In this document: one piece after another, positions 1 through 14,226 of the stretch
Position numbering within the stretch: the stretch's first letter is position 1
How the letters are laid out: every line of letters starts with the position of its first letter
DNA from: a virus
Taxonomy: Duplodnaviria > Heunggongvirae > Uroviricota > Caudoviricetes
Virus record (IMG/VR): IMGVR_UViG_2695420728_000017
Reading direction: 5' to 3' (one strand)
Length of the DNA stretch: 21,441 nt
Program-made: the position numbers and the translations under genes
The notes under the pieces: model-generated
What the model was told of the DNA's origin: nothing
What the model saw: the letters and a program-made list of their open reading frames with translations, nothing else
Database searches by the model: none

Positions 1-1719
1 CTGGAATGCCGGGCCAGCCACTCCATTCAGTTTCGGAGTAACCGTGGCACTGCCGGCGGTGAACACCAGCTCCAGCGTCTGCCAGTCGTTACCGTAATCG
101 CCGAACTCCCCCAGCTTCGTGTTTCCGGCTTTCCTGTGATGCATCAGATTCACTCTACCGTCAGTGGTCTGAGTGAAGTACGACATCAGGAACGGATTAC
201 CGGTACCCGTCATCGCCACACCATCAGGAACGGGAGCATCCGTATACAGATAAATCCCCAGCCCGAACTGATTGTTGGTCAGTGCGCCTGACAGGCGGAA
301 CTTACAGGTCAGTCTGCCGCCCTGTGTCAGCAGGGTAATTGCGTCATCCACCGGATGCGTCAGGGACCAGGTTTTATTGCTCTGCTTGGTGATCTTAAAT
401 ACACCATCTGACAACTGAATTCCGCCATCCTTAATGCTCCAGCCCTGCGCAGCAGCCTCTCCGGCTGCCGGCAGCAGGGAGATTGTGCGAACGGACGTAT
501 CTGCAGACGGACCCGATGGCGTGTTGCCGCCGGGCGAGGGTTTGATTTCCGGTGCCTTACCACTGATGAAGGCTGAGGTGCGCCCGGCTGCGTTCAGAAT
601 AGCGGTTGCCAGACGATCCGGAATAATGCTCCTGCGCGCCCATGAACTGAAATGTGTCGGGCGGTTTGATGATACCTGGTTTCCATTCGTTCTCGATGCC
701 GCACCGTAATATCCTGATGCCGGAATATCCGGATCTTCTGCCGGCGCGTTAGTGGCGGTATTGACGCCGTTACCGTCTGTCATGAAGGGCACAAAATAAA
801 CGCCCTCACTCTCCCTGTTTTTATACCCGCCGTACACGGTGTCGTACTGGGTAGCGTATGTATTTTTCCAGTAATACGTCGTGTCACCACAAATCCACGG
901 CACATCTGCAGCACTGCCACCATGGCACTGCGCGTTAAACACGGAGAGGTCAGCACGAAACTGTGTCAGCATGGCTGTAAACAGCGCAGGTTGCTGTGCG
1001 TGGGTGGCGGCGCTCATGTCAAACTCACCCTGCATCCAGCAGACGGCCAGCAGAACGTTTTTGGGATTTTTCTGCAATGCCGCTTTTGTGCGGGAAATCA
1101 GATCCTGATATAACGGCTTGCCCACCCCCCAGCGTGCCGAATCCTGACTGGCCCCCGTGGACTCGCTGAATGTCCCCTCCGCGCCCTGGGTAAATGCCGA
1201 ACCACCACGACAGCATGGTACCAGCAGGATCCCCGCGTTATTCGGGATATACGGGAGCAGTTTTTTGGCAATATGTAAACCCTGGCCGACACAGCCGTAC
1301 TGCCCTTTGCTCAGGTCAGCCCTCGGATGATTCAGCGTACTCATATCCTGCACATCATGCAGACAGTGGTCAGCCGGAATAATATCGTTATATCTGCAGG
1401 CAGCCCCGCCCGGCGTCACTGTACTGCGGCGCGCCAGCTGTTTAATGCGCGGATCCGGAGCATCGTATGAATCCGGCAGCGGAAGCCCTTCACCGTAAGC
1501 CATGGCATTGGACTGCCCGGCCAGTACGATGACGTAGTACCAATCCGGCTCAGATGAAGGGCCGACCTGTGGCTCTCCTTCAATAGCCACCGCCTGCATC
1601 AGTGTGTACGGCGTAATGGCAACCGGTCCGCCGTATGGCTGCCAGCCCTCTTTCAGTTTGTGTGTCAGCTTTTCCGCAAGGTCTGACGGCGACGCCGCCC
1701 TGACAACATCATAATTTTT
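1..1719 (-). pseudogene. 5'-truncated tandem paralog of nanS-p (sialate O-acetylesterase); 3' end runs off the window
   Basis: Bases 1-1719 align with 1846-3564 (offset 1845). ORF-track peptides 360-563/2205-2408 and 434-709/2279-2554 are identical; 881-1108 vs 2726-2953 differ at several residues. Minus-strand frame is open from 1719 to the window edge and keeps the GQSNAMAYG block, but has no start codon: it begins KNYDVV directly in frame after TAA-TAA (1720-1725) ending the upstream copy. First in-frame ATG is about codon 44. Confidence 0.5.
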
Positions 1720-1722
1720 TTA

Positions 1723-3573
1723 TTATGCTGCCGGTGCATTTATCTCCAGCATCAGACTTTCTATCTCAACGCCATACGCTGCATTTTTTGTAACATCCGT
1801 CAGCGTCAGCGCATTCAGTCCCAGTGTCAGACTGTCTTTTATAACCTGGAATGCCGGGCCAGCCACTCCATTCAGTTTCGGAGTAACCGTGGCACTGCCG
1901 GCGGTGAACACCAGCTCCAGCGTCTGCCAGTCGTTACCGTAATCGCCGAACTCCCCCAGCTTCGTGTTTCCGGCTTTCCTGTGATGCATCAGATTCACCC
2001 TGCCGTCAGTGGTCTGAGTGAAGTACGACATCAGGAACGGATTACCGGTACCCGTCATCGCCACACCATCAGGAACGGGAGCATCCGTATACAGATAAAT
2101 CCCCAGCCCGAACTGATTGTTGGTCAGTGCGCCTGACAGGCGGAACTTACAGGTCAGTCTGCCGCCCTGTGTCAGCAGGGTAATTGCGTCATCCACCGGA
2201 TGCGTCAGGGACCAGGTTTTATTGCTCTGCTTGGTGATCTTAAATACACCATCTGACAACTGAATTCCGCCATCCTTAATGCTCCAGCCCTGCGCAGCAG
2301 CCTCTCCGGCTGCCGGCAGCAGGGAGATTGTGCGAACGGACGTATCTGCAGACGGACCCGATGGCGTGTTGCCGCCGGGCGAGGGTTTGATTTCCGGTGC
2401 CTTACCACTGATGAAGGCTGAGGTGCGCCCGGCTGCGTTCAGAATAGCGGTTGCCAGACGATCCGGAATAATGCTCCTGCGCGCCCATGAACTGAAATGT
2501 GTCGGGCGGTTTGATGATACCTGGTTTCCATTCGTTCTCGATGCCGCACCGTAATATCCTGATGCCGGAATATCCGGATCTTCTGCCGGCGCGTTAGTGG
2601 CGGTATTGACGCCGTTACCGTCTGTCATGAAGGGCACAAAATAAACGCCCTCACTCTCCCTGTTTTTATACCCGCCGTACACGGTGTCGTACTGGGTAGC
2701 GTATGTATTTTTCCAGTAATACGTCGTGTCACCACAAATCCACGGCACATTTACAGCACTGCCACCATGGCACTGCGCGTTAAACACAGTGAGGTCAGCA
2801 CGAAACTGCTTCAGCATGGCTGTAAACAGCGCAGGTTGCTGTGCGTGGGTGGCGGCGCTCATGTCAAACTCTCCCTGCATCCAGCACACCGCCAGCAACA
2901 CATTTTTCGGGTTCTTCTGTAATGCAGCTTTAGTGCGCGCAATCAGGTCCTGATATAACGGTTTACCCACACCCCAGCGTGCCGAATCCTGGCTGGCCCC
3001 CGTGTCCGCACTGAATGTCCCCTCCGCGCCCTGGGTGAATGCCGAACCACCACGACAGCATGGTACCAGCAGGATCCCCGCGTTATTCGGGATATACGGG
3101 AGCAGTTTTTTGGCAATATGTAAGCCCTGGCCGACACAGCCGTACTGCCCTTTGCTCAGGTCTGCCTTCGGATGATTCAGCGTACTCATATCCTGCACAT
3201 CATGCAGGCAGTGGTCGGCCGGAATAATATCGTTATATCTGCATGCAGCCCCACCCGGCGTAACTGTACTGCGGCGCGCCAGCTGTTTAATGCGCGGATC
3301 CGGAGCATCGTATGAATCCGGCAGCGGAAGCCCTTCACCGTAAGCCATGGCATTGGACTGCCCGGCCAGTACGATGACGTAGTACCAATCCGGCTCAGTT
3401 GCACCACTGACCACCACATCACCTTCTGCTGTAATCGCCTGCATCAGGGTATAAGGGGTTATGGCCACCGGACTACCAAACGGCTGCCAGCCCTCTTTCA
3501 GTTTGTGTGTCAGCTTTTCCGCAAGGTCTGACGGCGACGCCGCCCTGACAACATCATAATGTTTAAATGTCAT
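1723..3573 (-). CDS. nanS-p: prophage-encoded sialate O-acetylesterase NanS-p (SGNH/SASA esterase with N-terminal DUF1737-like and C-terminal lectin-like regions)
   Basis: 616-aa ORF with ATG at 3571-3573; contains the LAGQSNAMAYGEG esterase block. Size and domain order match the nanS-p genes found downstream of stx/tRNA in lambdoid prophages. Sits downstream of the tRNA trio on the same strand. Confidence 0.85.
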   Translation of the reverse strand: MTFKHYDVVRAASPSDLAEKLTHKLKEGWQPFGSPVAITPYTLMQAITAEGDVVVSGATEPDWYYVIVLAGQSNAMAYGEGLPLPDSYDAPDPRIKQLARRSTVTPGGAACRYNDIIPADHCLHDVQDMSTLNHPKADLSKGQYGCVGQGLHIAKKLLPYIPNNAGILLVPCCRGGSAFTQGAEGTFSADTGASQDSARWGVGKPLYQDLIARTKAALQKNPKNVLLAVCWMQGEFDMSAATHAQQPALFTAMLKQFRADLTVFNAQCHGGSAVNVPWICGDTTYYWKNTYATQYDTVYGGYKNRESEGVYFVPFMTDGNGVNTATNAPAEDPDIPASGYYGAASRTNGNQVSSNRPTHFSSWARRSIIPDRLATAILNAAGRTSAFISGKAPEIKPSPGGNTPSGPSADTSVRTISLLPAAGEAAAQGWSIKDGGIQLSDGVFKITKQSNKTWSLTHPVDDAITLLTQGGRLTCKFRLSGALTNNQFGLGIYLYTDAPVPDGVAMTGTGNPFLMSYFTQTTDGRVNLMHHRKAGNTKLGEFGDYGNDWQTLELVFTAGSATVTPKLNGVAGPAFQVIKDSLTLGLNALTLTDVTKNAAYGVEIESLMLEINAPAA

Positions 3574-3756
3574 TATTCCTCCCGGCCGGGATAGTGTATT
3601 AAATCAGATATGGAGTGGGCTGTAGTCCGGAAGCCTGAATGACACACGGGGACTACAGCCCAAGAAATGAAAAAAGGCCACGCAGTTGCGCAGCCTGATA
3701 AACCCTGGTTAAAATCCACACGATAACAACACAACAATATCAGTATCTCATGCTAT

Positions 3757-3782
3757 TGCCCGAACCCATTCGGGCATTTTTT
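3757..3782 (+). terminator. intrinsic terminator, plus strand only
   Basis: Perfect 8-bp stem TGCCCGAA/TTCGGGCA with CCCA loop followed by TTTTTT. The minus-strand version has no U-tract. Confidence 0.5.
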
Positions 3783-3787
3783 ACCCA

Positions 3788-3815
3788 TAAAAAATGCCCC
3801 TCCGGAGAGGGGCAT
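3788..3815 (-). terminator. intrinsic terminator, minus strand (between TerB operon and nanS-p)
   Basis: 9-bp stem ATGCCCCTC/GAGGGGCAT with 4-nt loop; on the minus strand it is followed by TTTTTTAT. Plus-strand side has only GTTTG. Confidence 0.55.
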
Positions 3816-3980
3816 GTTTGCATGCACATTCTTTTTCTTGCATGGTGCCGGGTGCCTCCCGGTGAATTCAGTATCAGCACCTGAATCCGCGATTATCCCA
3901 TATACCTGGTTGCTGATCGCCCCTCCGCACAGGGGGATTCACCATGCAGAAGTGTTTTTAATAAACAGCAAACAAAAAAA

Positions 3981-4148
3981 TCAAGCATTATGCAGGCTGT
4001 TTCTTTTTATCACCGGCCACAGCAATACCACAATGCCGCAGACCAGCACCCCATCCGCCAGCACCGACATGATTCTGCTGGTGAGATCCACCATCACCAC
4101 CAGAAACAGCAGGAGTGCAGCCACAGCCAGGCGCAGTTTTACCGTCAC
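3981..4148 (-). CDS. small hydrophobic protein (~55 aa, two predicted TM segments), translationally coupled to TerB-family gene
   Basis: GTG start at 4146-4148 overlaps the TGA stop of the upstream gene. Translation VTVKLRLAVAALLLFLVVMVDLTSRIMSVLADGVLVCGIVVLLWPVIKRNSLHNA; stop at 3981-3983. Not in ORF track (<60 aa). Confidence 0.25.
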   Translation of the reverse strand: MTVKLRLAVAALLLFLVVMVDLTSRIMSVLADGVLVCGIVVLLWPVIKRNSLHNA

Positions 4149-4576
4149 AGGTGATTCTCCAGACGAAGACCCAGAACACCGGCAATCTCTTCCAGCACCT
4201 TGCGCTCTTCCGGCTCAATTTCGCCGTCTGCCTCCGCAATGGCCACCGCCACATCCAGCACATCTTCCGCTTCACGCGTATCGTGTTTCACATCCTCAAT
4301 CTCGCGTAACGCGGCACGACGACCAATTTTAAAATTGGTATCCAGCTGACCGATAATGGTTGCGCTAATCGCATTAATTTCCGAGGTAAACGCAGACAAC
4401 GCAGGCTGATTACGTAAGACCTGTTCGATCTTCGCTTTCTCGGATGCCTCGCATTCACCATCTGCATAGGCCACCAGGTATGCAGCGTTAATCACCGCCT
4501 GTGCCAGATCGCGTTTCTCAAACTTTTTAATTTCCGCTGCCGCTCTGCGGGTTTTCTTTTTGAAGATTCCAAACAT
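4145..4576 (-). CDS. TerB-family (tellurite-resistance TerB-like) protein
   Basis: Internal ATG at 4574-4576 preceded by AAGGAA RBS gives a 143-aa protein MFGIFKKKTRR...; paired acidic motifs (AYADGECEASEK and AEADGEIEPEER) match TerB architecture. The ORF-track 24-codon N-terminal extension (GTG at 4648) lacks an RBS. Confidence 0.65.
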   Translation of the reverse strand: MFGIFKKKTRRAAAEIKKFEKRDLAQAVINAAYLVAYADGECEASEKAKIEQVLRNQPALSAFTSEINAISATIIGQLDTNFKIGRRAALREIEDVKHDTREAEDVLDVAVAIAEADGEIEPEERKVLEEIAGVLGLRLENHL

Positions 4577-4708
4577 CGTGACGTTCCTTTGGGTGGGTGA
4601 GCCAACGCCCGGGAGCGATCTGCCCACAGAGAAAGTCACACTGACCACTCCGTAAGCTCACCCCCGAAAGGCTCTGTGGTTGATATGCGCCGGGCGTGGC
4701 GCAGATAC

Positions 4709-4732
4709 AAAAAAGGCCCGCCGAAGCGAGCC
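4709..4732 (-). terminator. intrinsic terminator just 3' of the tRNA cluster
   Basis: On the minus strand: 7-bp stem GGCTCGC/GCGGGCC (one G-U) with UUCG tetraloop followed by TTTTTT (plus-strand A-run 4709-4714). Confidence 0.45.
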
Positions 4733-4745
4733 TGGAAAATAAGTG

Positions 4746-4822
4746 TGGCGCGTTGTAGTGGAGTCTAACCACTGACCGATTGCTTAGAAGGCAATTGCTC
4801 TGTCCGACTGAGCTAACAACGC
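4746..4822 (-). tRNA. argO: tRNA-Arg (anticodon TCT, decodes AGA/AGG); atypical T-loop
   Basis: 77-nt cloverleaf by hand: acceptor GCGTTGT/ACAACGC, D-arm GCTC/GAGC, anticodon stem ATTGC/GCAAT with loop CT-TCT-AA, T-stem AGTGG/CCACT, encoded CCA. T-loop is TTAGACT (A at position 56 instead of C). Third position in an Ile-Arg-Arg trio as in Stx-phage ileZ-argN-argO. Confidence 0.6.
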
Positions 4823-4835
4823 ATGATGCTGATAA

Positions 4836-4912
4836 TGGACCGCCATCGGGGACTTGAACCCCGCGCAGCCAGCTTCGAAGGCTGGCGCTCTGTCCCGATG
4901 AGCTAATAGCGG
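4836..4912 (-). tRNA. argN: tRNA-Arg (anticodon TCG, decodes CGA/CGG)
   Basis: 77-nt cloverleaf: acceptor CCGCTAT/ATGGCGG (one G-U), D-arm GCTC/GAGC, anticodon stem CCAGC/GCTGG with loop CT-TCG-AA, T-arm CGGGG-TTCAAGT-CCCCG, encoded CCA. Confidence 0.75.
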
Positions 4913-4921
4913 TATGTAATA

Positions 4922-4997
4922 TGGTGGCCCTTGCTGGATTTGAACCAGCGACCTGGCGATTATGAGTCGCTCGCTCTCACCACTGAGCTAAAGGGCC
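4922..4997 (-). tRNA. ileZ: tRNA-Ile2-like (anticodon CAT, lysidine type; close to ileX/ileY)
   Basis: 76-nt cloverleaf: acceptor GGCCCTT/AAGGGCC, D-arm GCTC-AGTGGTGA-GAGC, anticodon loop CT-CAT-AA, T-arm GCTGG-TTCAAAT-CCAGC, discriminator A, CCA. Near-identical in layout to E. coli ileX as I recall it. A CAT anticodon alone cannot exclude tRNA-Met. Confidence 0.8.
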
Positions 4998-5025
4998 GAG
5001 CCAAAAAATAATAATCAGATGAAAA

Positions 5026-5739
5026 TCAATAATCAAGCCCTTGCCTGGATACATATCTGTCTGGCGGGAAGCCATAATAGCGGTGAAATACAGAAATAAA
5101 GTAGGACCTGCTTGAATAACCGCATTTTTCTGCTATAGCCTGTCCATATCCATGCCGGGAACATAACATATTTACAGCAACACGCATCCGCTCTTCCAGC
5201 AACAAGCGACTGAACATGCCCCCTTCATTTTTCAGTTTTGTCTTTAACAAACTCTCACTCATATGCAACTGTAGAGCAATCGCACCAAGCGTCCAGCTTG
5301 CTGATATATCTGTCTGAATTATCGCCCTGACTTTGGCACTTATGCTGGATAAACATCCACTTAAAAACAATGACATCCGTTCATCTGTTTCAAACAGAGA
5401 CAGGCAGGCCATCATAAGAAACATATCCGTGGCCTCTCCGGAAAATCCCTGGCTGGTAATTAAAGCCGCAGCCAACGCAGGATTGTTGGGTTCCAGCAAC
5501 AGGTAAAGCGGAATGTCAGTCAGACGAGTCCTCGTCAGCTTATGCTGACTTTCCAGATATTGACTTACGACGGATTCGCTTATATCGACAATTTTAACTT
5601 TGCCATAATGCATAAGGAAAAGCTCCCTGATGCATTTGGTGGCCAGAACAACTGAGCCTGGCTTAAGTGACAACGTATCCTTTTCAAGAAAAATATTAAT
5701 TGGGGAGCAAACCATGATAACTGAACAGACAACAGCCAT
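5026..5739 (-). CDS. AraC/XylS-family transcriptional regulator (prophage moron; AppY/PatE-like class)
   Basis: 237-aa ORF; C-terminal dual HTH region (…AIALQLHMSESLLKTKLKNEGGMFSRLLLEERM… and …GYSSRSYFISVFHRYYGFPP) is typical of AraC family. Stop lies 28 bp upstream of the tRNA-Ile 5' end. Confidence 0.75.
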   Translation of the reverse strand: MAVVCSVIMVCSPINIFLEKDTLSLKPGSVVLATKCIRELFLMHYGKVKIVDISESVVSQYLESQHKLTRTRLTDIPLYLLLEPNNPALAAALITSQGFSGEATDMFLMMACLSLFETDERMSLFLSGCLSSISAKVRAIIQTDISASWTLGAIALQLHMSESLLKTKLKNEGGMFSRLLLEERMRVAVNMLCSRHGYGQAIAEKCGYSSRSYFISVFHRYYGFPPDRYVSRQGLDY

Positions 5740-5873
5740 TATAATTTTACTTTCATTAGCAATTGGTTAGCTCAATTATAGCCCCAAAAGGTAAATTATC
5801 ATCAACACATAAGCAAAGGACTGACAGGTGTCGCCCCCCCACCAGCCGCCCATTCACCACAAATAAAAAGCCT

Positions 5874-6071
5874 TCAGGACTGAAGGCGTCTGTAACAACC
5901 GCACTGATAGTCTGCCAGACCCGCCATAACAAGCTGGGTCAGTATTAACTGGCAGCGTTCGCGTGAAAGGTAAGTATTCTGCGCAATCTCCCCGACTGTC
6001 GCCGGTTCGGTGACGCTTAATTCATCAAACACAACTCTGGCGGTTTCTGTCATATCCTGCTGTTTCAGCAT
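5874..6071 (-). CDS. small putative DNA-binding protein (65 aa, HTH/winged-helix-like)
   Basis: ATG at 6069-6071 with AAAGGG about 8 nt upstream; the segment TVGEIAQNTYLSRERCQLILTQLVMAGLA resembles a recognition-helix region. Family not recognised. Confidence 0.3.
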   Translation of the reverse strand: MLKQQDMTETARVVFDELSVTEPATVGEIAQNTYLSRERCQLILTQLVMAGLADYQCGCYRRLQS

Positions 6072-6349
6072 GTCTTTTTACCCTTTCCGGTTAACGTGAC
6101 ATACCAATAACTCTTGTCTAAAAAGCCAGCAAGATAAAAAGCCAGTATTCACGACCACCAGCGTGTTTACTGTACTGCACCAGGTTTACAGGTACAAAAA
6201 AACCGCTCAGCGGCGGGTTTAAGTTGTGTGGCGAAGTAACCACTCTTAACACACTAATAGCATTTTTGTTATAACACAAGTAGCTCATTCAGTATTTTTA
6301 GAATCTTGACTTTCTTAAGCACGGAGAACTCTGAATACCAAACATAAAA

Positions 6350-6968
6350 TCAATTATCTTCCAGGCCGGATGCTATCAACGAAAGCCTCTCAAAAAACGC
6401 TGTAGCAGCCTTGTCCAAAGTTGAATAAGTACTGTATTCTCCGTGTTCGGGACCAACCACTACCCATGGTCGTCTTTTTGGGATTCGGGACTTCTCAGAA
6501 ATCACTGTTCCAGATATACCAATATCAATTGTTACACCTGTTATTATTTTCTCTTCATCTCTTTCCCTGAACTCAATTGCCATAAATGCCGTTTTTTTTT
6601 CGTTTCCCGTTTTTAAAAAAATCAAATAAAGCAAAGCGATGCTCATTAAAATCAACACCCCATCGTCCTTCAGGATAAAGGGCATGAAAGTTGTCATTTA
6701 CGCTCTGCATCGTCTCATAAGCTTTAACTTCTAAATCTCCATAGTGCATAGATACCGCGCAGGAGTCACTGGGTAACTGTATTTTCCCAAGATTGAAAAC
6801 CTTTACTGCTCCAGAACTATGGCATCTTGCCCGCAATTTATCCCCATTTATACTAATCGGAGAAATATTCCTTAATGTTCCGGGCTGGCTCCCTCCTAAG
6901 TAAACGACTGTTAAAGATTGCTTATTTTCAATTGCATCAACTAATACATGCTCTACATTTTTATCCAT
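6350..6968 (-). pseudogene. frameshifted gene of unknown function (possible WYL-like fold); frames switch at an A9 homopolymer
   Basis: ATG at 6966-6968 with GGGAGG RBS 7 nt upstream. The N-terminal frame (126 codons, ends TGA at 6573-6575) and the C-terminal frame (continues to 6350) overlap at 6573-6697 and are joined by a 1-nt shift at the T9 run 6592-6600 (A9 in the mRNA). Deleting one A gives a continuous ~206-aa protein. Confidence 0.5.
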
Positions 6969-7043
6969 AATAACCTCCCAATGAACAGGTATCATCAGGA
7001 GGTTATTATAAAATATGATTATTTACTTTGATTGAATTTATTA

Positions 7044-7415
7044 CTATATGTAACAATCAATTTCTAAAGATACCCCCAACATTGCCAGACAACCGTCAAT
7101 AAACCCTTCAGCTTTCTGCAGTCTGATAACAACCTGATTAAGTGATATCCCCAGTTTTACCCCCAACGCCCGTAATGTAACCCCATACACATAATACATT
7201 TCCAGTAATTCGTATTGATACGGTTCCTTTTTCTTAAGAACTGTCATCGCAGAGCTAATGATCAGGCCATCGTCATCGCTACATTGCGGGCGGGATTTTA
7301 CTTTCGAAGGAATTAATCCCTTAAAACCTGCAGCAACAGATGACCATTCCACATCCTCGTGATTATTTGCCACCCATGCCCCCCAACGTTCAAGAACCAT
7401 TTGAATATCACGCAT
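7044..7415 (-). CDS. late-gene antiterminator Q (lambdoid Q family, QuuD-like)
   Basis: ATG at 7413-7415 with GGAGAAAG RBS gives 123 aa starting MRDIQMVLERWGAWVANNHEDV, which matches my recollection of DLP12 QuuD. The ORF-track start at 7430 is a TTG with no RBS. Confidence 0.8.
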   Translation of the reverse strand: MRDIQMVLERWGAWVANNHEDVEWSSVAAGFKGLIPSKVKSRPQCSDDDGLIISSAMTVLKKKEPYQYELLEMYYVYGVTLRALGVKLGISLNQVVIRLQKAEGFIDGCLAMLGVSLEIDCYI

Positions 7416-7432
7416 CAACTTTCTCCACAAAA

Positions 7433-8428
7433 TCAGGCCAGCACGCCTATTGCCAGCGCACGATCGATAAAACGAAATATCAGCTCCAGCTGGGAGCCAT
7501 ACTTCTCTTCAAATGCCACGGTATCCGCATGCAGCTCGTCGTGATGCTTTCTGCACAAAGGCAACACAAAGAGGTCATGCGCTTTTGTAGCCATTCCACC
7601 CTGACCGTGACCTATCAGGTGGTGGGGATCATCAGCAGGCTTTCCACAACATGCGCACGGCTGCGTCTTAACCCAGCGCGTGTACTTTTCATTAACCCAG
7701 CGGCGACGTTTTGGGCGTAACATAAAAGACTCCGGCGACTCCGGATCCACTTTCAGCGCCAGCACCTTTTTTGCCTTATCCTGGATGATGCTGGTGGCAG
7801 GAACCGAAGGCACAAGGTCACTTTCCCGGGTGACAGACGGCACAACAGGCTTTGGTAATCTCAGTGCCTTACGGGCTGCACTTTCCGGTAAGACATCCGC
7901 CAGGTCATTACGAATCAGCCACCAGCACAGTTCCGGCATTGTCACAACGTGACTATCATCAAAACCGAGATCCCGACGCACAACAGACAACACCCAGCGG
8001 GCACAGTTATCCGTTGCCATTGATTCCAGTCGTTCCGTGAACTGATCGCGCAGCTGGTTATCGCAGTGCCAGCACAGACGGATTGCGCCCGGCGCGTGCC
8101 GCATTGTTGTCATGTTCTCGCTGTGCCAGTCGGAATGAGGCCACTGGCAGCCTTTTTCACGAAGTAACCAGCTTTCAAGACATTCCACGCCACCAGCACG
8201 ACGGATCACTGCCTCATTGCGGAACACGGCCCGAACGGCAGGATCATCCGCCAGCGGTTGTGATGCCGCCGGTACGGCACCACTGGCGAAAGATGAATAA
8301 CGTTCCGGCTCAGGCTCCAACAGGACACGCCCCTGCATAAACAGGGGCATCAGCTCTGAACCTGGTCTGAACAATACGATCCCCATACGCGGGGCAATTT
8401 CAGGGGTCAGTAGTGCTCTCACGGTCAC
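7433..8428 (-). CDS. DUF968-family prophage protein (YdfU-like; C-terminal Cys/His HNH-like motif)
   Basis: 331-aa ORF, GTG start abutting the upstream stop; C-terminus QPCACCGKPADDPHHLIGHGQGG…CRKHHDELH. Typical position between rusA/kilA-N and Q. Confidence 0.5.
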   Translation of the reverse strand: MTVRALLTPEIAPRMGIVLFRPGSELMPLFMQGRVLLEPEPERYSSFASGAVPAASQPLADDPAVRAVFRNEAVIRRAGGVECLESWLLREKGCQWPHSDWHSENMTTMRHAPGAIRLCWHCDNQLRDQFTERLESMATDNCARWVLSVVRRDLGFDDSHVVTMPELCWWLIRNDLADVLPESAARKALRLPKPVVPSVTRESDLVPSVPATSIIQDKAKKVLALKVDPESPESFMLRPKRRRWVNEKYTRWVKTQPCACCGKPADDPHHLIGHGQGGMATKAHDLFVLPLCRKHHDELHADTVAFEEKYGSQLELIFRFIDRALAIGVLA

Positions 8429-8429
8429 C

Positions 8430-9239
8430 TCAATGAACGGTATCGAGCAGCTTTAACAGCTCAGGGAATCGGGATTCGAAGAAATGCGGCTGCGTCTCGC
8501 GCGGATTTGCAGGACTGGTGATGTTCTTGCCGAACATGCAGCCTTTCGCGGTCAGCGACCAGAATTTTTTGATGTTGTTAATCGCGGTACGACTGTATCG
8601 TTCGCGTTGTTCAACGATCCCCAGCTTCGCCATCTGGTGATATGCCTGATTAGCTGTCAGGCGGATACCATACTGCTTCAGCAGTGCACTCAGTGACAGC
8701 GTGGGGCGGCTTGAGCCATCAGGCGCGTCAGCAGGAGCATCAATGGCATAGCGCGGTGCCAGATTCGGTAAGCCAACAGCCTCCTGGAGTTTCTGACAGG
8801 CACCAAGCACTGAAGAGTTAGACAGGTTTAATTCCCGGCGCATAAAGTCCAGCAGAATCACACCAGCCTGCATCTTGTCAGCAGCCTGTCCGGATAATTT
8901 TTCCGGTGCGCTGGTTACCATGTCGAAAGTACGGATCACCTTCAGATGGAATGACGGGCTGATCCACATTGCATAGGCATACACCAGTTCCTTGCAGACA
9001 TACGTTCCCCGTTCATTTCCCCCATGAATCACACTCACCGGGTCAACACCCAAATTCTGGGTGTTGGTCAATTCATGAACAAGCTCAACAGTTTGTTGGC
9101 TGGAAAGAAACTTTCCTGGCTCCTTGGTTCTGGCATTTGCACCAGATGCTACTGCTGCGCGATGTAGATCGTTCAGGCTGTAACGCCCATAAACATCACG
9201 ACGAACTTCAATACCATCAATGACCATCAGATTATTCAT
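8430..9239 (-). CDS. KilA-N domain protein (antirepressor-like)
   Basis: ATG at 9237-9239 with GAGGAG RBS 9 nt upstream; N-terminus MNNLMVIDGIEVRRDVYGRYSLNDLHRAAV…YVCKELVYAYAMWISPSFHLKV is KilA-N-like. Confidence 0.55.
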   Translation of the reverse strand: MNNLMVIDGIEVRRDVYGRYSLNDLHRAAVASGANARTKEPGKFLSSQQTVELVHELTNTQNLGVDPVSVIHGGNERGTYVCKELVYAYAMWISPSFHLKVIRTFDMVTSAPEKLSGQAADKMQAGVILLDFMRRELNLSNSSVLGACQKLQEAVGLPNLAPRYAIDAPADAPDGSSRPTLSLSALLKQYGIRLTANQAYHQMAKLGIVEQRERYSRTAINNIKKFWSLTAKGCMFGKNITSPANPRETQPHFFESRFPELLKLLDTVH

Positions 9240-9258
9240 ACTTCGTTTCTCCTCTTGA

Positions 9259-9648
9259 TCAGGCGGCTGCACCCGCCGTTTTCTCGTACTTACTGATAGT
9301 GATCTCGACCTTCCCTTTCGGGATAACCGGTCCCCACTCCACCAGCATTCTTTTCACCTGACTGTCGTCTTCCCACACACCCGCGTGGGTCAGGGCGTCA
9401 AACAGCGCCTTGTTATAGTTGTCCAGATCGCGGATCCTGTTATCCGGAGGAAACAACACGATCTCCACTGAAGCAGGTGCCGACGTTGGTTTCGGCAGAC
9501 GACGTAACTGCTCAATGATGGCGGCACACGCCGCGCTCTGAAATTTTCGCCCCGCCTCGCTTATCAGGCTCTTACCAGCAAATGCCCCTTTGTTGGGGTG
9601 TCGCCAGTACGTGTTCACGCTGGGCGGAAAAGGCAGTATTAGCTTCAT
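9259..9648 (-). CDS. rusA: Holliday-junction resolvase RusA
   Basis: 129 aa; LPFPPSVNTYWRH and RIRDLDNYNKALFDALTHAGVWEDDSQV align with the E. coli RusA blocks (PPSNNRYYRH; RDLDN…FDALT…DDAQV). Its ATG overlaps the stop of the upstream MTase (ATGA). Confidence 0.8.
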   Translation of the reverse strand: MKLILPFPPSVNTYWRHPNKGAFAGKSLISEAGRKFQSAACAAIIEQLRRLPKPTSAPASVEIVLFPPDNRIRDLDNYNKALFDALTHAGVWEDDSQVKRMLVEWGPVIPKGKVEITISKYEKTAGAAA

Positions 9649-10298
9649 GCCACCATCTCCCTGACCAGTTTTTCCGCCTGCTGGCGAACCTGCGCCAGAA
9701 ATGCCTCACCACATGCCTCAAGTTCATCGCGCCCGATGTAGCTGATTGCCGGTCCCTTCCAGGTCTTGTCGAAAACAGCAATAGCACCAGCGAAGAAAGC
9801 ACCTGTTGGCACCTGCTTTTCGTCTTTCGGGATAAACCAGGCAGGCAGTTCAAAACCAATACGCCCGCGAATAAAAGCAATATGATCTGCATCTTCCGGC
9901 CACCACACTTCGCTGGTGGCAGCTTTGATCAGGAAAACATAGCGCCCGCCTTTATCACGCATGGCACTGGCATGCTTCATGATGTAACGCATGCCGGTGA
10001 TGTATTGCCCCTCATGCTGACTGGCGCGGCTGTACGGGGGATTGCCAAAGGCAGCACCTTTAAGCTCCGCAAGACGTTCTGACCAGTCATGCGCCAGCGC
10101 GTTGTCTTCCGCCGTGTAATACGCGGCACATTTGGCGTTATCACCGTCAGTGAACAGATCCAGAACAAACGGACCAAACAAGGTGTTAATTCCCCAGAAA
10201 ATGTTGTCCGGCGTGCGCCACTGATCGCCCACTTCCTTCAGTTCATGGGCTGGTTTGTTCCGCAGTTCTACCAGCGCCTGGCAATATTTATTACTCAT
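9645..10298 (-). CDS. phage-type DNA N6-adenine methyltransferase (orphan, Dam-like)
   Basis: 217 aa with FGNPPYS, a (D/N)PPY motif IV, and typical phage Dam-family length. No adjacent restriction endonuclease gene. Confidence 0.7.
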   Translation of the reverse strand: MSNKYCQALVELRNKPAHELKEVGDQWRTPDNIFWGINTLFGPFVLDLFTDGDNAKCAAYYTAEDNALAHDWSERLAELKGAAFGNPPYSRASQHEGQYITGMRYIMKHASAMRDKGGRYVFLIKAATSEVWWPEDADHIAFIRGRIGFELPAWFIPKDEKQVPTGAFFAGAIAVFDKTWKGPAISYIGRDELEACGEAFLAQVRQQAEKLVREMVA

Positions 10299-10390
10299 TA
10301 AGCCCCCACGTAAAAAGCATCCGCAATGTCTCCGGAAGTACAGCCCGGATGGGCTTCAATGAATTTCTGAACGTCATTTAACAGACTCAT
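10298..10390 (-). CDS. small hypothetical protein (30 aa), translationally coupled
   Basis: ATG at 10388-10390 (GGGGGTG upstream) to TAA at 10298-10300: MSLLNDVQKFIEAHPGCTSGDIADAFYVGA. Its stop overlaps the MTase ATG (TAATG) and it begins 2 nt after the O-like stop. Not in ORF track. Confidence 0.25.
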   Translation of the reverse strand: MSLLNDVQKFIEAHPGCTSGDIADAFYVGA

Positions 10391-10392
10391 GA

Positions 10393-11211
10393 TCACCCCC
10401 TGAATCCTGCCGGGATCTGGCTGTAGTCCACGTTGTCGTAACTGGCTTTGAAGTACGGGTCCTCGCGTCTGGCTGCAGATACCGCAGGAACTTCCCAGGA
10501 CTCTTCGAAATGACGATCCGGGCCAAAGAACGTGACAGCCTGTTTCACAAATTGTGTGCCGCTGTTACCCATCGCAGATACCCAGCCCGCGTAGCGTTTC
10601 ACACCTTCCAGCATGGTTTCGGGTTTTACCCCCTCATTCAAACGGGCTTTCCAGGCTTTGAAGGCTGCAGATTTTGAATTGCCACCAGCACGTTTGGGGT
10701 ATGCCAGCCATGCCTGCTCAAACTCCGGAGAGTATTCCGGTCGGTTTGAACGAACTCGCACAGACTCATCAGCAGATGCACCAACAGCTATTGGTTCATT
10801 GACTGGTTCTTTGACTGGTTCAAAAGAGTGACTGGTTCTGGGTGAATCTCCTGCACCACCCCCTGGTGCAACTCCTGCACTACCTGGTGAATTTGCTGCA
10901 CCAGATAGTGAATTATTTGCACTACCCCCTAGTGAATCTCCTGCACCATCAAGATGAAGGAGATAGATATTACTTGAGTTACCTTTTTCACCTTTCCGGG
11001 TGACTTTTTTTACCAGTCCGGAATCACAAAGAGCCGCAATATGATTCATCACAGAACGTTTGCTAATCTCGCACTGGTCAGCAATATGCTGGTAGCTGGG
11101 CCAGCACTCACCCTGATCGCTGGCATTATCAGCCAGCTTGATCAGAACCAGTTTTCGCAATGGATTACCCACTCGAATTTTCATCGCTTTAACCATCAGC
11201 TCCATACTCAT
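10393..11211 (-). CDS. replication initiator, lambda O-like (N-terminal HTH, Gly/Ser/Pro linker encoded by iterons)
   Basis: 272 aa; N-terminal HTH (…SYQHIADQCEISKRSVMNHIAALCDSGLV…); the central linker GDSLGGSANNSLSGAANSPGSAGVAPGGGAGDSP is encoded by direct DNA repeats, as for the lambda O gene that contains ori. Confidence 0.55.
   Translation of the reverse strand: MSMELMVKAMKIRVGNPLRKLVLIKLADNASDQGECWPSYQHIADQCEISKRSVMNHIAALCDSGLVKKVTRKGEKGNSSNIYLLHLDGAGDSLGGSANNSLSGAANSPGSAGVAPGGGAGDSPRTSHSFEPVKEPVNEPIAVGASADESVRVRSNRPEYSPEFEQAWLAYPKRAGGNSKSAAFKAWKARLNEGVKPETMLEGVKRYAGWVSAMGNSGTQFVKQAVTFFGPDRHFEESWEVPAVSAARREDPYFKASYDNVDYSQIPAGFRG
10841..10950. repeat. five imperfect ~21-bp direct repeats with internal dyad symmetry (candidate origin iterons), inside the O-like gene
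   Basis: Units about GGTGAATCTCCTGCACCA at 10841-10862, 10864-10884, 10885-10907, 10908-10929, 10930-10950; e.g. TGGTGCA-ACTCC-TGCACTA. A second set TGACTGGTTC x3 lies at 10801-10838. Confidence 0.45.
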
Positions 11212-11432
11212 GCTGCACCTCCGAGATGCTTCATGTTTTTTCCGGAGCGAAAGGCTATAAGCGGCATACTGACGCGGTAATTACGGCCAAGCGGTTCACA
11301 AATCACCTTCTGACATTCACGGTCAACCAGGCTAACACGTAGAACATGCCCTGCAGGTGTGGTGTACCACTGACCCGGACGAGGACAACGGAAAGTCTGA
11401 TTGGTAAACCGTTTGAAAATATTCCGGATCAT
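11208..11432 (-). CDS. hypothetical protein (74 aa)
   Basis: Its ATG overlaps the Rha stop (ATGA at 11429-11432) and its stop overlaps the O-like ATG (ATGA at 11208-11211). No family recognised. Confidence 0.4.
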   Translation of the reverse strand: MIRNIFKRFTNQTFRCPRPGQWYTTPAGHVLRVSLVDRECQKVICEPLGRNYRVSMPLIAFRSGKNMKHLGGAA

Positions 11433-11986
11433 TTGCGCCCCCTTACCTCTGAAGGGTTCAGCGACAAATTTATGAGGCAGGCCAGCGCCGAAGCATCATT
11501 AATATAATCATATAAGCTAACAGCCAGCGGAGATTCAGCTTTTGCCAACATAGGATAAAGCTGCTGCAGCCAGACCTTGTGGATTACCGACAGGTGGGAG
11601 TAAAGCACGCTGGCGTTATCTGCGGCATCGCTCAGCGTGGATGGCTTTGAAAGCAGTTTTTCCATCTGGTTAAAGGCATTGATGTATGCCTCTTTGAACC
11701 GGGCAGCACGTTTACCCGTGAAACCCATAGCAAGAAACGCAAAACCGTCTCGTGTGATTTGATAGCAAGGGAGCTTGCGTGTACCACCGTTCGGTTGATT
11801 TACCGAAATCGATGTCTCCGCAAAATTGCGGGCACAAAACTCAGGGGAACAATCCAGAGTGCGGATCTTTTTCAGCACATCGTCGTGACGCTTGGAGAAG
11901 AAGTTGGCAACAGCCAAAGAAGTGGTAACGGCCTGGCCGTTGTCAATGGTGATTTCAGGTTGAGTGAGGGCTTGGATCGTAGCCAT
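11429..11986 (-). CDS. phage regulatory protein Rha
   Basis: ATG at 11984-11986 with GGAGG 8 nt upstream; MATIQALTQPEITIDNGQAVTTSLAVANFFSKRHDDVLKKI…KLPCYQITRDGFAFLAMGFTGKRAARFKEAYINAFNQME is a canonical Rha N-terminal domain (185 aa). Confidence 0.7.
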   Translation of the reverse strand: MATIQALTQPEITIDNGQAVTTSLAVANFFSKRHDDVLKKIRTLDCSPEFCARNFAETSISVNQPNGGTRKLPCYQITRDGFAFLAMGFTGKRAARFKEAYINAFNQMEKLLSKPSTLSDAADNASVLYSHLSVIHKVWLQQLYPMLAKAESPLAVSLYDYINDASALACLINLSLNPSEVRGRK

Positions 11987-12589
11987 GATGGCAGCCTCCG
12001 TTGACAGTGAAAAACTTCCACCACCGGAAACGCCAATTTCACTGGTGGTGAACTGGACGGGGTTGGCGTAACCGGCGTCAACGGAGACCGGCGCACCTTT
12101 CGGTGCCCCCGCCCAGCCCACCATAATCTGGATGTGAGCAAATGCGGACGATAAAAAAGACGCTGGCGCGTCATACATCGCCGTTGACAATTTCAGGACG
12201 CCAATCCCGGCACCCGCTTTATAAGGTGCCTGAACAGTGTAACGTCCCGGAATTGCAGAGTCAATATGCTGGTGGTCCTTCACACTCAACAAAATCACGC
12301 CTGAATTTCCACAAAGGACTAAAGCACTCATGCGGGTAGTCTTTGCGAAGATAGATAACGCGCTGTGTTTCTGGCTCCCAACGAATAACATGAACATAAA
12401 GTCCTCTTCCGTCACGAAACCAGCGGTTAAGTTCCTGCACAACTCGCCCCCCACAGTCAGGTAAAGTTCTCTGTGGTTACTTACAGCCAGGTGATTTGGT
12501 AATCTGCATTCATGCCGTAACAACAGGTGTGCAGCGACACTGACCACCAGCTGTTGCGACAAACGGTTATTTGCCGTTAAACTGTTCAT
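11987..12589 (-). CDS. unassigned 201-codon open frame, in frame with and directly upstream of Rha (possible separate gene or N-terminal extension)
   Basis: ATG at 12587-12589 overlaps the stop of the upstream YdaT-like gene (ATGA) and has GGAGA about 10 nt upstream. The frame stays open for 201 codons into the Rha ATG while the other two minus frames are full of stops (hand translation). No family recognised; composition is unusual. Confidence 0.3.
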
Positions 12590-13137
12590 GCGTTAGTTTC
12601 TCCACAGACACAAAACGCCACGACGCCCGGAGCTGCACACTCGCGGGCGTTACTCTTTTCTGGAGCGCAGAAGATTTTGTAGACCAGTGCTGCATGCTCC
12701 TGGAGCTTCGAAATTGACAGATACAACTCATCATTAATTGCTGTCTGCTCGTGTGGCTCCACTACCCCATCTTCGATTGCCGAACGAATCTGCTTTGAGT
12801 AACTCCCGATCTGTTCGATGACTTCCAGCAGGCGCTGGTTTATATCGGCGTTCTCTACTTCCTCAATTTCTGGAAGTGATACAAACACCCCACCAGCAGA
12901 CTGTGCGACAGCATCCGCAATGTGGTGAGTACCAGCCGCACGCTGTAAAACCATTGCCCATCCCAACGGAAAAAACTGATCGCCATCGGCACGAAGGCGG
13001 TTGAATAAAGCGTTCTCTGTTACATCCAGCCACTCAGCAGCTTCAGCGTAACCCCCCGGCAACGCCGCGATAGTTTTTCTGACAGCTTTCACGTACCACT
13101 CAGGCTGTTTTTCCACTTTCCAGTGATGCTTACCCAC
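12586..13137 (-). CDS. YdaT-like / phage CII-type regulatory protein
   Basis: 183-aa ORF (GTG start) immediately after the Cro-like gene, the position and size class of ydaT in Rac-type immunity regions. Family call is from memory only. Confidence 0.4.
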   Translation of the reverse strand: MGKHHWKVEKQPEWYVKAVRKTIAALPGGYAEAAEWLDVTENALFNRLRADGDQFFPLGWAMVLQRAAGTHHIADAVAQSAGGVFVSLPEIEEVENADINQRLLEVIEQIGSYSKQIRSAIEDGVVEPHEQTAINDELYLSISKLQEHAALVYKIFCAPEKSNARECAAPGVVAFCVCGETNA

Positions 13138-13390
13138 GGCTTACCTCCTGTTCCTGTGGTTTTAACTCATTCCGGTTTTGACTAGATTGAAAGCGTGCAG
13201 GATAGAGAATCTGCATTTCGCTGATTTCTCCCTTAAAAAAATTGGCCAGACGTTCTGCAAGCTCGATAGATGGAATTTGTTCCAGTCTTTCAATACGACT
13301 CAGCGTCGCTGGATTGACCTGAACGCCCGCAGCAACATGCTGCAAAGTAAATCCGTGCGCCTTACGCACATTCCGTAATGGTGATTGCAT
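13130..13390 (-). CDS. Cro-like HTH regulator (YdaS-like), divergent from the CI-like repressor
   Basis: 86 aa with an XRE-type HTH (…HVAAGVQVNPATLSRIERLEQ…). ATG at 13388-13390, 97 bp from the divergent repressor ATG. Confidence 0.65.
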   Translation of the reverse strand: MQSPLRNVRKAHGFTLQHVAAGVQVNPATLSRIERLEQIPSIELAERLANFFKGEISEMQILYPARFQSSQNRNELKPQEQEVSRG

Positions 13391-13404
13391 ATAACCTCCA
13401 CATA

Positions 13405-13467
13405 TTGCGTGATGAGCATATTATTTCACGCAAATATTTTGCGCAAGTTGATTTGCTTAACGCGCAA
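13405..13467. promoter_or_regulatory. OR-type operator cluster between cro-like and cI-like genes
   Basis: Three dyad sites sharing TTGC…GCAA half-sites: TTGCGTGA-N13-TCACGCAA (13405-13433), TTGCGCAA (13439-13446), TTGCTTAACGCGCAA (13453-13467). Confidence 0.5.
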
Positions 13468-13487
13468 TAAAGAAATGTAATAAACGC

Positions 13488-14180
13488 ATGAACATAGGAA
13501 ATCGAGTCAGACAACTTCGCCAGGCGAAGAACATGAAAATCGCCGATCTCGCTGAAGCAATAGGAGTGGATGCGGCGAATATCTCGCGCCTCGAAACAGG
13601 TAAGCAGAAACAATTCACTGAACAAGCCCTGAGTAATATTGCCAGGAGCTTAGGTGTTGATATTGCTGATCTCTTTACCTCAGACTTCAAAAGTAATACT
13701 GTATGTAAAAACAGTATTAGTGAGGATATTGCGCAGGTGAAGGATGTATTCCGTATTGAAATGCTGGATATCAGTGCCAGTGCGGGAAATGGCCTTATCC
13801 AGGGCGGAGATGTCATTGATGTGATTCATGCCATTGAATACAGAACTGATAATGCTGTATCGATGTTTGGCGGACGGCCAGCAAATCACATTAAAGTTAT
13901 CAACGTTCGTGGGGACAGTATGTGTCCAACCATTGAGCCAGGAGATCTCATCTTCGTTGATGTCAGTATCAATCAGTTTGATGGAGATGGTATCTATGTA
14001 TTTGGTTTTGATGATAAAATTTATGTCAAACGACTGCAAATGATACCTGACAAACTACTGGTGATTTCTGATAACCAGATTTATCGTGAATGGGGAATTA
14101 CCAGCGAAAATGAACACCGGTTTATGGTCTTTGGAAAGGTCTTAATCAGCCAGTCACAAACCCTTAAGCGACACAATTAA
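13488..14180 (+). CDS. CI-like prophage repressor (N-terminal HTH plus C-terminal S24/LexA-type autopeptidase)
   Basis: 230 aa; HTH KIADLAEAIGVDAANISRLETGK; peptidase block GDSMCPTIEPGDLIFVD with downstream Lys (KIYVKRL), i.e. the Ser-Lys dyad of RecA-stimulated self-cleaving repressors. Confidence 0.85.
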   Translation: MNIGNRVRQLRQAKNMKIADLAEAIGVDAANISRLETGKQKQFTEQALSNIARSLGVDIADLFTSDFKSNTVCKNSISEDIAQVKDVFRIEMLDISASAGNGLIQGGDVIDVIHAIEYRTDNAVSMFGGRPANHIKVINVRGDSMCPTIEPGDLIFVDVSINQFDGDGIYVFGFDDKIYVKRLQMIPDKLLVISDNQIYREWGITSENEHRFMVFGKVLISQSQTLKRHN

Positions 14181-14200
14181 CCCTTACCTCCTCATCAATT

Positions 14201-14226
14201 AGCCACCCGAAGGTGGCTTTTCATTA
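14201..14226 (+). terminator. intrinsic terminator after the repressor gene
   Basis: Stem AGCCACC/GGTGGCT with CGAA loop followed by TTTTCATT, 20 nt after the cI stop. Confidence 0.5.

What the first reader, a model, noticed from the sequence alone, without database searches (positions are those of the whole stretch)
1..3573. Tandem nanS-p esterase paralogs; distal copy has no start codon and sits in frame behind a TAA-TAA
The two copies are 1845 bp apart. Their C-terminal halves are identical (bases 1 to about 900 vs 1846 to about 2745) and their N-terminal halves diverge by roughly 10%, with a 37-nt replaced patch near 1555/3400, a pattern that suggests gene conversion. Copy 1 has lost its first five codons: its frame continues from copy 2 across two stop codons (1720-1725) and the next ATG is about codon 44. 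Either copy 1 is a recombination-scarred pseudogene, it is expressed by read-through or reinitiation, or the repeat is an assembly artefact at a contig edge.
Basis: seen in the sequence. Interest (0 to 1): 0.5.

Follow-up and report, generated by a model that had tools for sequence, protein, structure and literature searches.

The report
Scaffold-gap artefact joining two nanS-p genes
The apparent tandem pair of phage sialate-esterase genes is most likely a draft-assembly artefact: in the public record the base that joins them is an unsequenced 'N' at a contig end, so the start-less, in-frame second copy has no sequence support.

Summary
An intact 616-aa nanS-p gene lies at 1723-3573 (minus strand). 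A second copy lies at 1-1719, offset by 1845 nt, and reads in frame after TAA-TAA. The window is the first 21,441 nt of the draft contig CYAF01000026.1 (GCA_001285745.1), so position 1 is a real contig end. In that record the base at window 1714, exactly at the junction, is 'N'. It is the only N in the terminal 9.6 kb. Left of the N, the sequence follows natural nanS-p alleles through the stop codon and an A7 run, and stops where natural 3' flanks diverge. Right of the N is an internal fragment (gene nt 16-1728) of a different, O157-type allele (1709/1713 identical). No contiguous junction was found in 5,426 complete E. coli genomes, GTDB representative genomes, IMG/VR or JGI metagenomes. Four complete genomes carry the same prophage backbone (one identical over 17.9 kb), and each has one nanS-p followed by the holin gene. 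nanS-p is multi-copy in many E. coli genomes and commonly breaks short-read assemblies. My verdict is a scaffolding or gap-filling join between paralogs, not a real feature. Low interest.

The parts
1723..3573 (-). Intact nanS-p-type sialate O-acetylesterase gene ('copy 2'), 616 aa, with domains DUF1737-SASA-DUF6645. A GGAGG ribosome-binding site lies 6 nt upstream of the ATG (window 3580-3584, cctcc on the + strand).
   Evidence: ORF and translation. Pfam hits: DUF1737 1.1e-15, SASA 1.2e-12, DUF6645 4.6e-18. It is 99.6% identical over 1926 nt, including the 5' UTR and the 3' A7 run, to single-copy genes in complete genomes. It differs from strain 99-3311 at only 7 positions. The exact protein (WP_053904911.1) is seen on this one contig only.
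1715..1725 (-). TAA TAA followed by the rest of an A7 run. These are the last sequenced bases of the left-hand contig, and this is the point where the 3' flanks of natural nanS-p paralogs diverge.
   Evidence: Natural alleles read GCAGCATAATAAAAAAA and then differ: GCCAGCGCCC (L001), CAGCCAGTAC (L003), GCCAGCGACT (L005). In many complete genomes, 100% matches to window 1715-1800 stop at 1715.
1714..1714 (.). Placeholder base. It is 'N' in the public record CYAF01000026.1, i.e. an unsequenced scaffold or gap-fill join.
   Evidence: L004 sequence. Alignment of the window to the record. It gives the only X in the translation of the terminal 9,575 nt.
1..1713 (-). Internal fragment ('copy 1') of a second nanS-p allele of O157 type, covering gene nt 16-1728. 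It lacks the first 5 codons and the last 41 codons and stop codon (123 nt), and it ends at the contig end.
   Evidence: 1709/1713 nt are identical to the nanS-p of O157:H7 strain PV15-279 (WP_000023255.1), starting at offset 15. The natural 5' end there is ATGTCGATTAAACAT|TATGATG. Contig end shown.
1..905 (-). C-terminal-half sequence that is nearly identical to 1846-2750 (2 mismatches, at 154 and 157). This part is shared among paralogs and cannot be resolved from short reads.
   Evidence: The same C-terminal half occurs in the natural alleles L003 and L005.
1554..1590 (-). Hypervariable linker between DUF1737 and SASA (copy 1: AVAIEGEPQVGPSSEPDWYY; copy 2 at 3399-3435: AITAEGDVVVSGATEPDWYY). 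This is an allelic difference, not a scar.
   Evidence: 20 mismatches in 37 nt. The copy 1 version is the natural O157-type sequence and the copy 2 version is the natural Z1323HEC0108/99-3311 sequence.

Best explanation
The 'tandem' is a join made by an assembly scaffolder or gap-filler, not a sequenced arrangement. The source is a short-read draft genome with at least two prophage nanS-p paralogs that share an almost identical C-terminal half.

- One assembled piece runs from the prophage late region (Q, tRNAs, TerB, DUF3927) through a complete nanS-p. It stops in the A7 run just after the stop codon, where the paralogs' 3' flanks diverge.
- The other piece is a 1,713-nt internal fragment of a second, O157-type allele that belongs to another prophage. 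Both of its ends lie close to sites where natural alleles vary or cease to match.
- The two pieces were placed end to end with a single N, as happens when a gap is estimated at zero or less, or is filled from both sides without finding an overlap.

Copy 2 is an ordinary, functional-looking phage sialate O-acetylesterase gene. Copy 1 is not a start-less gene at this locus, and its reading frame relative to copy 2 has no meaning.

Shown: the N, the contig end, the allele identities, and the absence of the junction elsewhere. Inferred: which program made the join and why.
For: 1. The window is the first 21,441 nt of CYAF01000026.1, so position 1 is the contig end.
2. The record has an N exactly at the junction. 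It is the only N in 9,575 nt. A real junction would be unique sequence and would be called normally.
3. Both sides follow natural sequence right up to the N. The left side ends after TAATAAAAAAA, where natural 3' flanks diverge. The right side starts at gene nt 16 of an allele that is 99.8% identical to one in O157:H7.
4. A 161-nt junction probe found no colinear hit in 5,426 complete E. coli genomes. The 15 two-piece hits have the same span and annotation as H31 (the one I inspected), which is a deletion remnant with the two pieces in the opposite order.
5. Exact and gapped (N{0,30}) junction patterns found nothing in GTDB representatives, IMG/VR or JGI metagenomes.
6. Z1323HEC0108 is 100.0% identical over window 3574-21441 and has one nanS-p followed by the holin gene 150 nt downstream. 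Three more complete genomes with this backbone also have one copy.
7. Among 356 phage records with a match there are only 358 places.
8. nanS-p is multi-copy (median 2, up to 16 places per genome). Its 90% cluster is full of 'partial' proteins from short contigs, so it typically breaks assemblies.
9. The published Sanger pipeline paper states that SSPACE and GapFiller are greedy and can make false joins, and that joins carry N gaps (PMC5320598). GapFiller extends base by base from both gap edges, and the gaps it leaves open are mainly in repeats (PMC3446322).
Against: - I could not read the raw reads or the rest of the assembly, so the join is not directly disproved.
- A read-pair scaffolder needs pairs linking a gene's 3' end to a gene's 5' start to place the pieces in this order. 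I cannot reconstruct a simple mis-mapping that would give that. Runaway gap-filling over many iterations is a plausible route but is inferred.
- I do not know for certain which pipeline built this assembly. The ENA-style accession and the product name 'YjhS' are only suggestive.
- The period being a multiple of 3 is compatible with chance (1 in 3) but is not explained.
Confidence: 0.88

Rival explanations
1. A real head-to-tail duplication or illegitimate recombination places an O157-type nanS-p, cut at codon 6, directly behind the resident nanS-p. The N is only an ambiguous base call at a true junction. Copy 1 would then be a promoter-less, start-less pseudogene at a recombination scar.
For: - The two pieces are joined in the record in the same orientation and with an apparent gap of 1 nt.
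- There is weak microhomology: AAAAA in the 3' flank against AAACA in the gene's 5' end.
- nanS-p alleles are clearly mosaic, so recombination among paralogs is common (PMC10462455).
Against: - An N exactly at the breakpoint, the only one in 9.6 kb, is what a join looks like. A unique junction sequence would be assembled without ambiguity.
- No such junction occurs in 5,426 complete E. coli genomes or three other collections.
- The complete genomes with the same prophage backbone each have one copy.
- The fragment also ends at the contig end inside the gene.
Confidence: 0.08
2. A real tandem in which copy 1 is expressed, either by stop-codon read-through of TAA-TAA to give a 1,200-aa double esterase, or by reinitiation at Met44.
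For: Only the apparent frame continuity in the window.
Against: - The frame rests on an N placeholder.
- Two consecutive TAA codons are the strongest termination context.
- There is no canonical start codon before the ATG at 1599-1597 and no Shine-Dalgarno sequence in front of it.
- Starting at that ATG would remove most of DUF1737.
- All the evidence against a real tandem also applies.
Confidence: 0.01
3. A single true gene was artificially duplicated by runaway gap-filling. The contig originally broke at the start of the shared C-terminal half. Iterated extension from both gap edges then rebuilt a C-terminal half on the left and a paralog's N-terminal half on the right, until each side hit a branch point, leaving 1 N. 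This is a sub-case of the best explanation in which window 1-905 belongs to this prophage.
For: - GapFiller extends both edges base by base with majority voting and leaves repeat gaps open (PMC3446322).
- The Sanger pipeline runs 120 iterations (PMC5320598).
- Deleting window 906-2750 gives one uninterrupted gene. The Z1323HEC0108 single copy has a similar make-up: it matches copy 2 up to gene nt 763 and copy 1 at the variant sites nt 764-823.
- The odd 60-nt variant patch in copy 2 (gene nt 764-823) sits at that boundary.
Against: - Left-edge extension should have overlapped the right flank at once and closed the gap.
- The pipeline used for this assembly is not established.
- It cannot be told apart from a mis-scaffolded separate contig without the reads.
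Confidence: 0.3

Closest known systems
Prophage-encoded NanS-p sialate O-acetylesterases of EHEC/STEC (e.g. 933W NanS-p/Z1466, phi24B vb_24B_21)
   Same: - The same three-domain build, DUF1737-SASA-DUF6645.
- The same place in a lambdoid late region, between Q/tRNAs and the class II holin.
- 97-99.8% identity to genes annotated as SASA family carbohydrate esterase or yjhS in STEC genomes and Stx phages.
- Multi-copy per genome and allelic in each domain, as described in PMC10462455.
   Different: - Nothing biological differs for copy 2.
- This prophage carries no stx between Q and nanS-p.
- The 616-aa alleles are shorter than the 645-aa 933W type listed in PMC10462455.
- The tandem arrangement is not described in that paper and was not found in any collection searched.
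False joins and single-N gaps from short-read scaffolding and gap closing (SSPACE/GapFiller type) in repeated prophage genes
   Same: - A lone N sits at the exact point where homology switches from one paralog's 3' end to another paralog's interior.
- Both pieces end close to sites where natural alleles vary or cease to match.
- The location is at a contig end.
- The pipeline paper itself warns of false joins.
   Different: I could not establish which software made this assembly. The behaviour of leaving a single N is from my own knowledge of these tools, not from a text I could quote.
Internally deleted nanS-p remnants (DUF1737 N-terminus fused to the C-terminal end), e.g. E. coli RM14723
   Same: These were the only complete-genome loci where both halves of the junction probe lie within a few hundred bases.
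   Different: The order is N-terminus then C-terminus within one decayed gene, not 3' end then 5' start. PGAP annotates them as pseudogene fragments. They are not tandems.

Membership tests
NanS-p (prophage sialate O-acetylesterase) | N-terminal DUF1737 domain (PF08410) | tested here: met
   Copy 2 residues 3-50, E=1.1e-15. The copy 1 fragment scores 1.5e-14 but lacks the first 5 codons.
NanS-p (prophage sialate O-acetylesterase) | Central SASA/SGNH-type carbohydrate esterase domain (PF03629) with the GQSN nucleophile block | tested here: met
   SASA E=1.2e-12 for copy 2 and 8.2e-13 for copy 1. The motif LAGQSNAMAYGEG is present in both translations.
NanS-p (prophage sialate O-acetylesterase) | C-terminal lectin-like domain (DUF6645, PF20350) | tested here: met
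   E=4.6e-18 for copy 2 and 1.1e-17 for copy 1. In copy 1 the domain is cut by the contig end.
NanS-p (prophage sialate O-acetylesterase) | Location in the lambdoid late operon, downstream of Q/tRNAs (and stx where present) and upstream of holin S | tested here: met
   Upstream context in the window: Q, AraC-type HTH, three tRNAs, TerB, DUF3927. The holin gene follows directly in all four complete genomes with this backbone. In the window itself the downstream side is replaced by the joined fragment.
NanS-p (prophage sialate O-acetylesterase) | De-O-acetylation of Neu5,9Ac2 | not testable with these tools
   Activity is reported for EDL933 and O104:H4 alleles in the literature cited by PMC10462455. 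It was not assayed for these alleles.
Genuine tandem gene duplication | A contiguous, sequenced junction between the 3' end of unit 1 and the 5' end of unit 2 | tested here: not met
   The junction base is N in the record.
Genuine tandem gene duplication | The same arrangement recurs in independent, closed genomes of related strains or phages | tested here: not met
   No colinear junction in 5,426 complete E. coli genomes. None in GTDB representatives, IMG/VR or JGI metagenomes. One copy in each of the four closest prophages.
Programmed stop-codon read-through or reinitiation | A defined reading-frame relation, a leaky stop context or a restart codon with a ribosome-binding site | tested here: not met
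   The frame depends on an N. The stops are a double TAA. The first in-frame ATG is 41 codons downstream and has no Shine-Dalgarno sequence.

The most novel reading that the evidence does not exclude
The two nanS-p genes really are adjacent in this isolate: an illegitimate, microhomology-poor recombination fused the 3' flank of the resident gene to codon 6 of an O157-type paralog, and the N is just an uncalled base. This would be a snapshot of how prophage esterase paralogs exchange modules through a tandem intermediate. Unequal crossover within such a tandem could then give mosaic single copies like the one in Z1323HEC0108.
Probability: 0.08. Interest if true: 0.3.

Novelty: not a real feature. 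Interest (0 to 1): 0.05.

Why it matters
The value is mainly as a caution. Multi-copy prophage genes such as nanS-p are routinely mis-joined or truncated in short-read drafts. Replacing an N with a base before the sequence is read can create convincing-looking 'in-frame, start-less' genes. If windows are prepared this way, N positions should be kept or flagged. Biologically, copy 2 is an ordinary nanS-p in an stx-negative lambdoid prophage. If the tandem were real, it would be a modest example of paralog recombination, not a new mechanism.

Tried and rejected
1. I looked for the junction elsewhere and found nothing:
   - a 161-nt probe against complete E. coli genomes;
   - an exact 39-mer in GTDB representatives and IMG/VR;
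   - a gapped pattern allowing 0-30 unknown bases in GTDB representatives, IMG/VR and JGI metagenomes.
   The exact 39-mer scans contained the placeholder base, which is why I repeated them with a gap.
2. The 15 two-piece hits looked like candidate tandems. H31, the one I inspected, is an internally deleted single gene with the pieces in the opposite order. The other 14 have the same span and annotation, so I rejected them too.
3. I tested whether copy 2 is itself an assembly chimera:
   - its exact protein occurs on this contig only;
   - a hypothetical version with the Z1323HEC0108 C-terminus is not in the 15-billion-protein collection;
   - however, copy 2 is 99.6% identical end to end to natural alleles, and half of its odd 60-nt patch occurs in the UTAK-6 allele.
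   So this is unresolved, and a chimera is not needed.
4. Gene conversion as the cause of identical C-terminal halves is rejected as unnecessary, because natural alleles in different prophages already share that half.
5. A search for the assembly accession (CYAF01) in the literature gave only unrelated hits.
6. I could not reach other contigs of the source assembly or its reads with these tools.
7. Loci L002, L004 and L007 were not exposed to the Python sandbox, so I made those comparisons with the alignment, translation and BLASTP tools instead.
Full report
**What is in the window.** Both genes lie on the minus strand.
- Copy 2 is an intact ORF at 1723-3573 (616 aa, ATG start).
- Continuing in the same frame past GCA TAA TAA (1725-1720), the sequence reads KNYDVVRAASP... 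to the window start. This is copy 1 (1-1719), and it runs off the window.
- At an ungapped offset of 1845 nt there are 80 mismatches in 1728 nt. Two of them fall in 1-905. The rest cluster in the N-terminal half, with 20 in the 37-nt patch at 1554-1590.
- Both copies carry DUF1737, SASA and DUF6645, which is the NanS-p domain set described in PMC10462455.
- The first canonical in-frame start of copy 1 is the ATG at 1599-1597 (Met44 equivalent). No Shine-Dalgarno sequence precedes it.

**Where the window comes from.** An exact look-up of the copy 2 protein found it on a single contig, NCBI GCA_001285745.1 CYAF01000026.1 (72,382 nt). The locus covers record positions 1-9575. Window position 1 is therefore the physical end of a draft contig, and copy 1 is cut by that end.

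**The decisive observation.** In the record the junction reads ...GCACCGGCAGCATAATAAAAAAA N TATGATGTTGTCAGG....
- Aligning the window to the record shows one difference: window base 1714 (A on +, T on -) is N in the record.
- Translating all 9,575 nt of the locus gives a single X, in "APAA**KXYDVV". It is the only N in the terminal 9.6 kb, and it sits exactly at the breakpoint.

A lone N at a join marks a scaffold gap that was estimated at zero or less, or was filled from both sides without finding an overlap. That description of tool behaviour is my own knowledge of SSPACE/GapFiller-type tools. The pipeline paper confirms that joins carry N gaps and that these greedy tools "can lead to false joins" (PMC5320598). 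The GapFiller paper describes base-by-base extension from both edges, with the gaps left open lying mainly in repeats (PMC3446322). I could not establish which software built this assembly.

**Both sides of the N are natural sequence that stops near sites where paralogs differ.**
- On the copy 2 side, natural alleles read GCAGCATAATAAAAAAA and then diverge at once: GCCAGCGCCC in RM14723, CAGCCAGTAC in O157:H7 PV15-279, GCCAGCGACT in 99-3311. In many complete genomes the 100% matches to window 1715-1800 end at 1715.
- On the copy 1 side, 1-1713 is gene nt 16-1728 of an O157-type allele. It shares 1709/1713 nt with WP_000023255.1 of PV15-279, whose natural 5' end is ATGTCGATTAAACAT|TATGATG.
- The contig end (gene nt 1728) lies 3 nt before a site that varies among natural alleles (GGTTATA versus GGTCATA).

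Ends close to sites where paralogs differ are what collapsed repeats in a short-read graph produce.

**Copy 2 is an ordinary allele.** With its 5' UTR and through the A7 run it is 99.6% identical to single-copy genes in complete genomes. It differs from 99-3311 at 7 positions, six of them in a 60-nt patch at gene nt 764-823. Part of that patch variant (MLKQFRADLT) occurs naturally in the UTAK-6 allele.

**Population evidence.**
- Window 3574-21441 is 100.0% identical to a prophage of the complete genome Z1323HEC0108. That genome has one nanS-p (617 aa) followed 150 nt later by a class II holin gene.
- Its gene matches copy 2 up to nt 763, matches copy 1 at the variant sites nt 764-823, and has a different 3' end.
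- UTAK-6, 96_1414B and SCPM-O-B-7615 carry the same backbone at 99.9-100.0% identity. Each has one nanS-p followed by the holin gene.
- A 161-nt junction probe found no colinear match in 5,426 complete E. coli genomes. The 15 records that cover both halves have the same span and annotation as H31, the one I inspected. H31 is an internally deleted single gene with the halves in the opposite order. That search would have joined pieces up to about 580 nt apart, so tandems with a short natural spacer are also absent.
- Exact and gapped junction patterns found nothing in GTDB representatives, IMG/VR or JGI metagenomes.
- In 356 phage records with a match there are 358 places.

**Why nanS-p is prone to this.** It occurs at a median of 2 and up to 16 places per genome that has it. 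Its 90% identity cluster has 13,211 members, and many of those listed are 'partial' proteins from contigs of 0.7-6 kb. The shared C-terminal stretch here is 748 nt of perfect identity (158-905 against 2003-2750), longer than typical Illumina inserts.

**Best explanation (confidence about 0.88).** The source genome has at least two nanS-p paralogs. This is supported by two distinct C-terminal variants, at window 154/157, and two N-terminal alleles. The assembler or its improvement step placed an internal fragment of the second paralog behind the complete gene of this prophage and bridged them with one N. Alternatively, it rebuilt paralog sequence by extension from both edges of a gap. The frame continuity (1845 = 3 x 615) depends on the arbitrary one-base gap and has a one-in-three chance of arising by accident. 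What I cannot explain in detail is which read-pair evidence led to this order. That needs the reads.

**Rivals.**
- A real tandem with an uncalled base at the junction remains possible (about 0.08). Recombination among nanS-p paralogs is evidently common, as the mosaic alleles show. However, a unique junction should assemble cleanly, and nothing similar exists in closed genomes.
- Read-through or reinitiation (about 0.01) additionally faces a double TAA and the lack of a start codon and ribosome-binding site.

**Comparison with known systems.** Copy 2 meets every sequence-level criterion of the NanS-p family and sits in the expected late-operon position, here in an stx-negative lambdoid prophage. 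[quoted passage not shown] Activity of these particular alleles was not tested.

**Verdict.** Interest is low (0.05).

Noticed in passing
window 1714: This base is 'N' in the public record (CYAF01000026.1) but 'A' in the window. Ambiguous bases appear to have been converted to A during window preparation, which can create false codons and false frame continuity.
   Followed up: yes
window 3721-3782 (+) and 3783-3976 (-): Rfam matches to the prophage sRNAs AgvB (anti-GcvB, 96.5 bits) and STnc100 (142.7 bits). They lie back to back in the gap between the DUF3927 gene and nanS-p.
   Followed up: no
window 4746-4997 (-): Three phage tRNA genes: Arg(tct), Arg(tcg) and a CAT-anticodon tRNA. ARAGORN calls the last one Met, but PGAP annotates it as Ile in the identical prophage. 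This is the ileZ-argN-argO-like cluster typical of Stx-type late regions. No stx genes follow it here.
   Followed up: partly
window 12041-12229 (-): C4 antisense RNA (81.4 bits) and isrK (62.2 bits) lie next to a Rha-family regulator gene. This resembles a P1/P7-type antirepressor immunity module inside a lambdoid prophage.
   Followed up: no
window 2750-2810 (gene nt 764-823 of copy 2): A 60-nt patch with six substitutions (protein K/T/VN instead of T/S/AD) sets copy 2 apart from the otherwise nearly identical alleles of 99-3311 and Z1323HEC0108. Half of the variant occurs in the UTAK-6 allele. It could be natural mosaicism or a consensus mixed from several paralogs.
   Followed up: partly
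L002, L007, L008, L009 (complete genomes with the same prophage backbone): The same prophage backbone (99.9-100.0% identical early and late-regulatory region) carries different nanS-p alleles and different 5' UTRs in different strains (WP_032362312.1 versus WP_052933980.1). This shows cassette-like exchange of the esterase gene between prophages.
   Followed up: partly
L001 4009-4355 (E. coli RM14723) and 14 similar records: Recurrent internally deleted nanS-p remnants, with about 165 nt of the DUF1737 start joined to about 170 nt of the C-terminal end. They are found in dog, chicken and human isolates and on a 108-kb plasmid.
   Followed up: partly
window 20869-21441 (-): A Panacea-domain protein gene (a domain linked to toxin-antitoxin antitoxins) lies at the far end of the window and is annotated in the identical Z1323HEC0108 prophage.
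   Followed up: no
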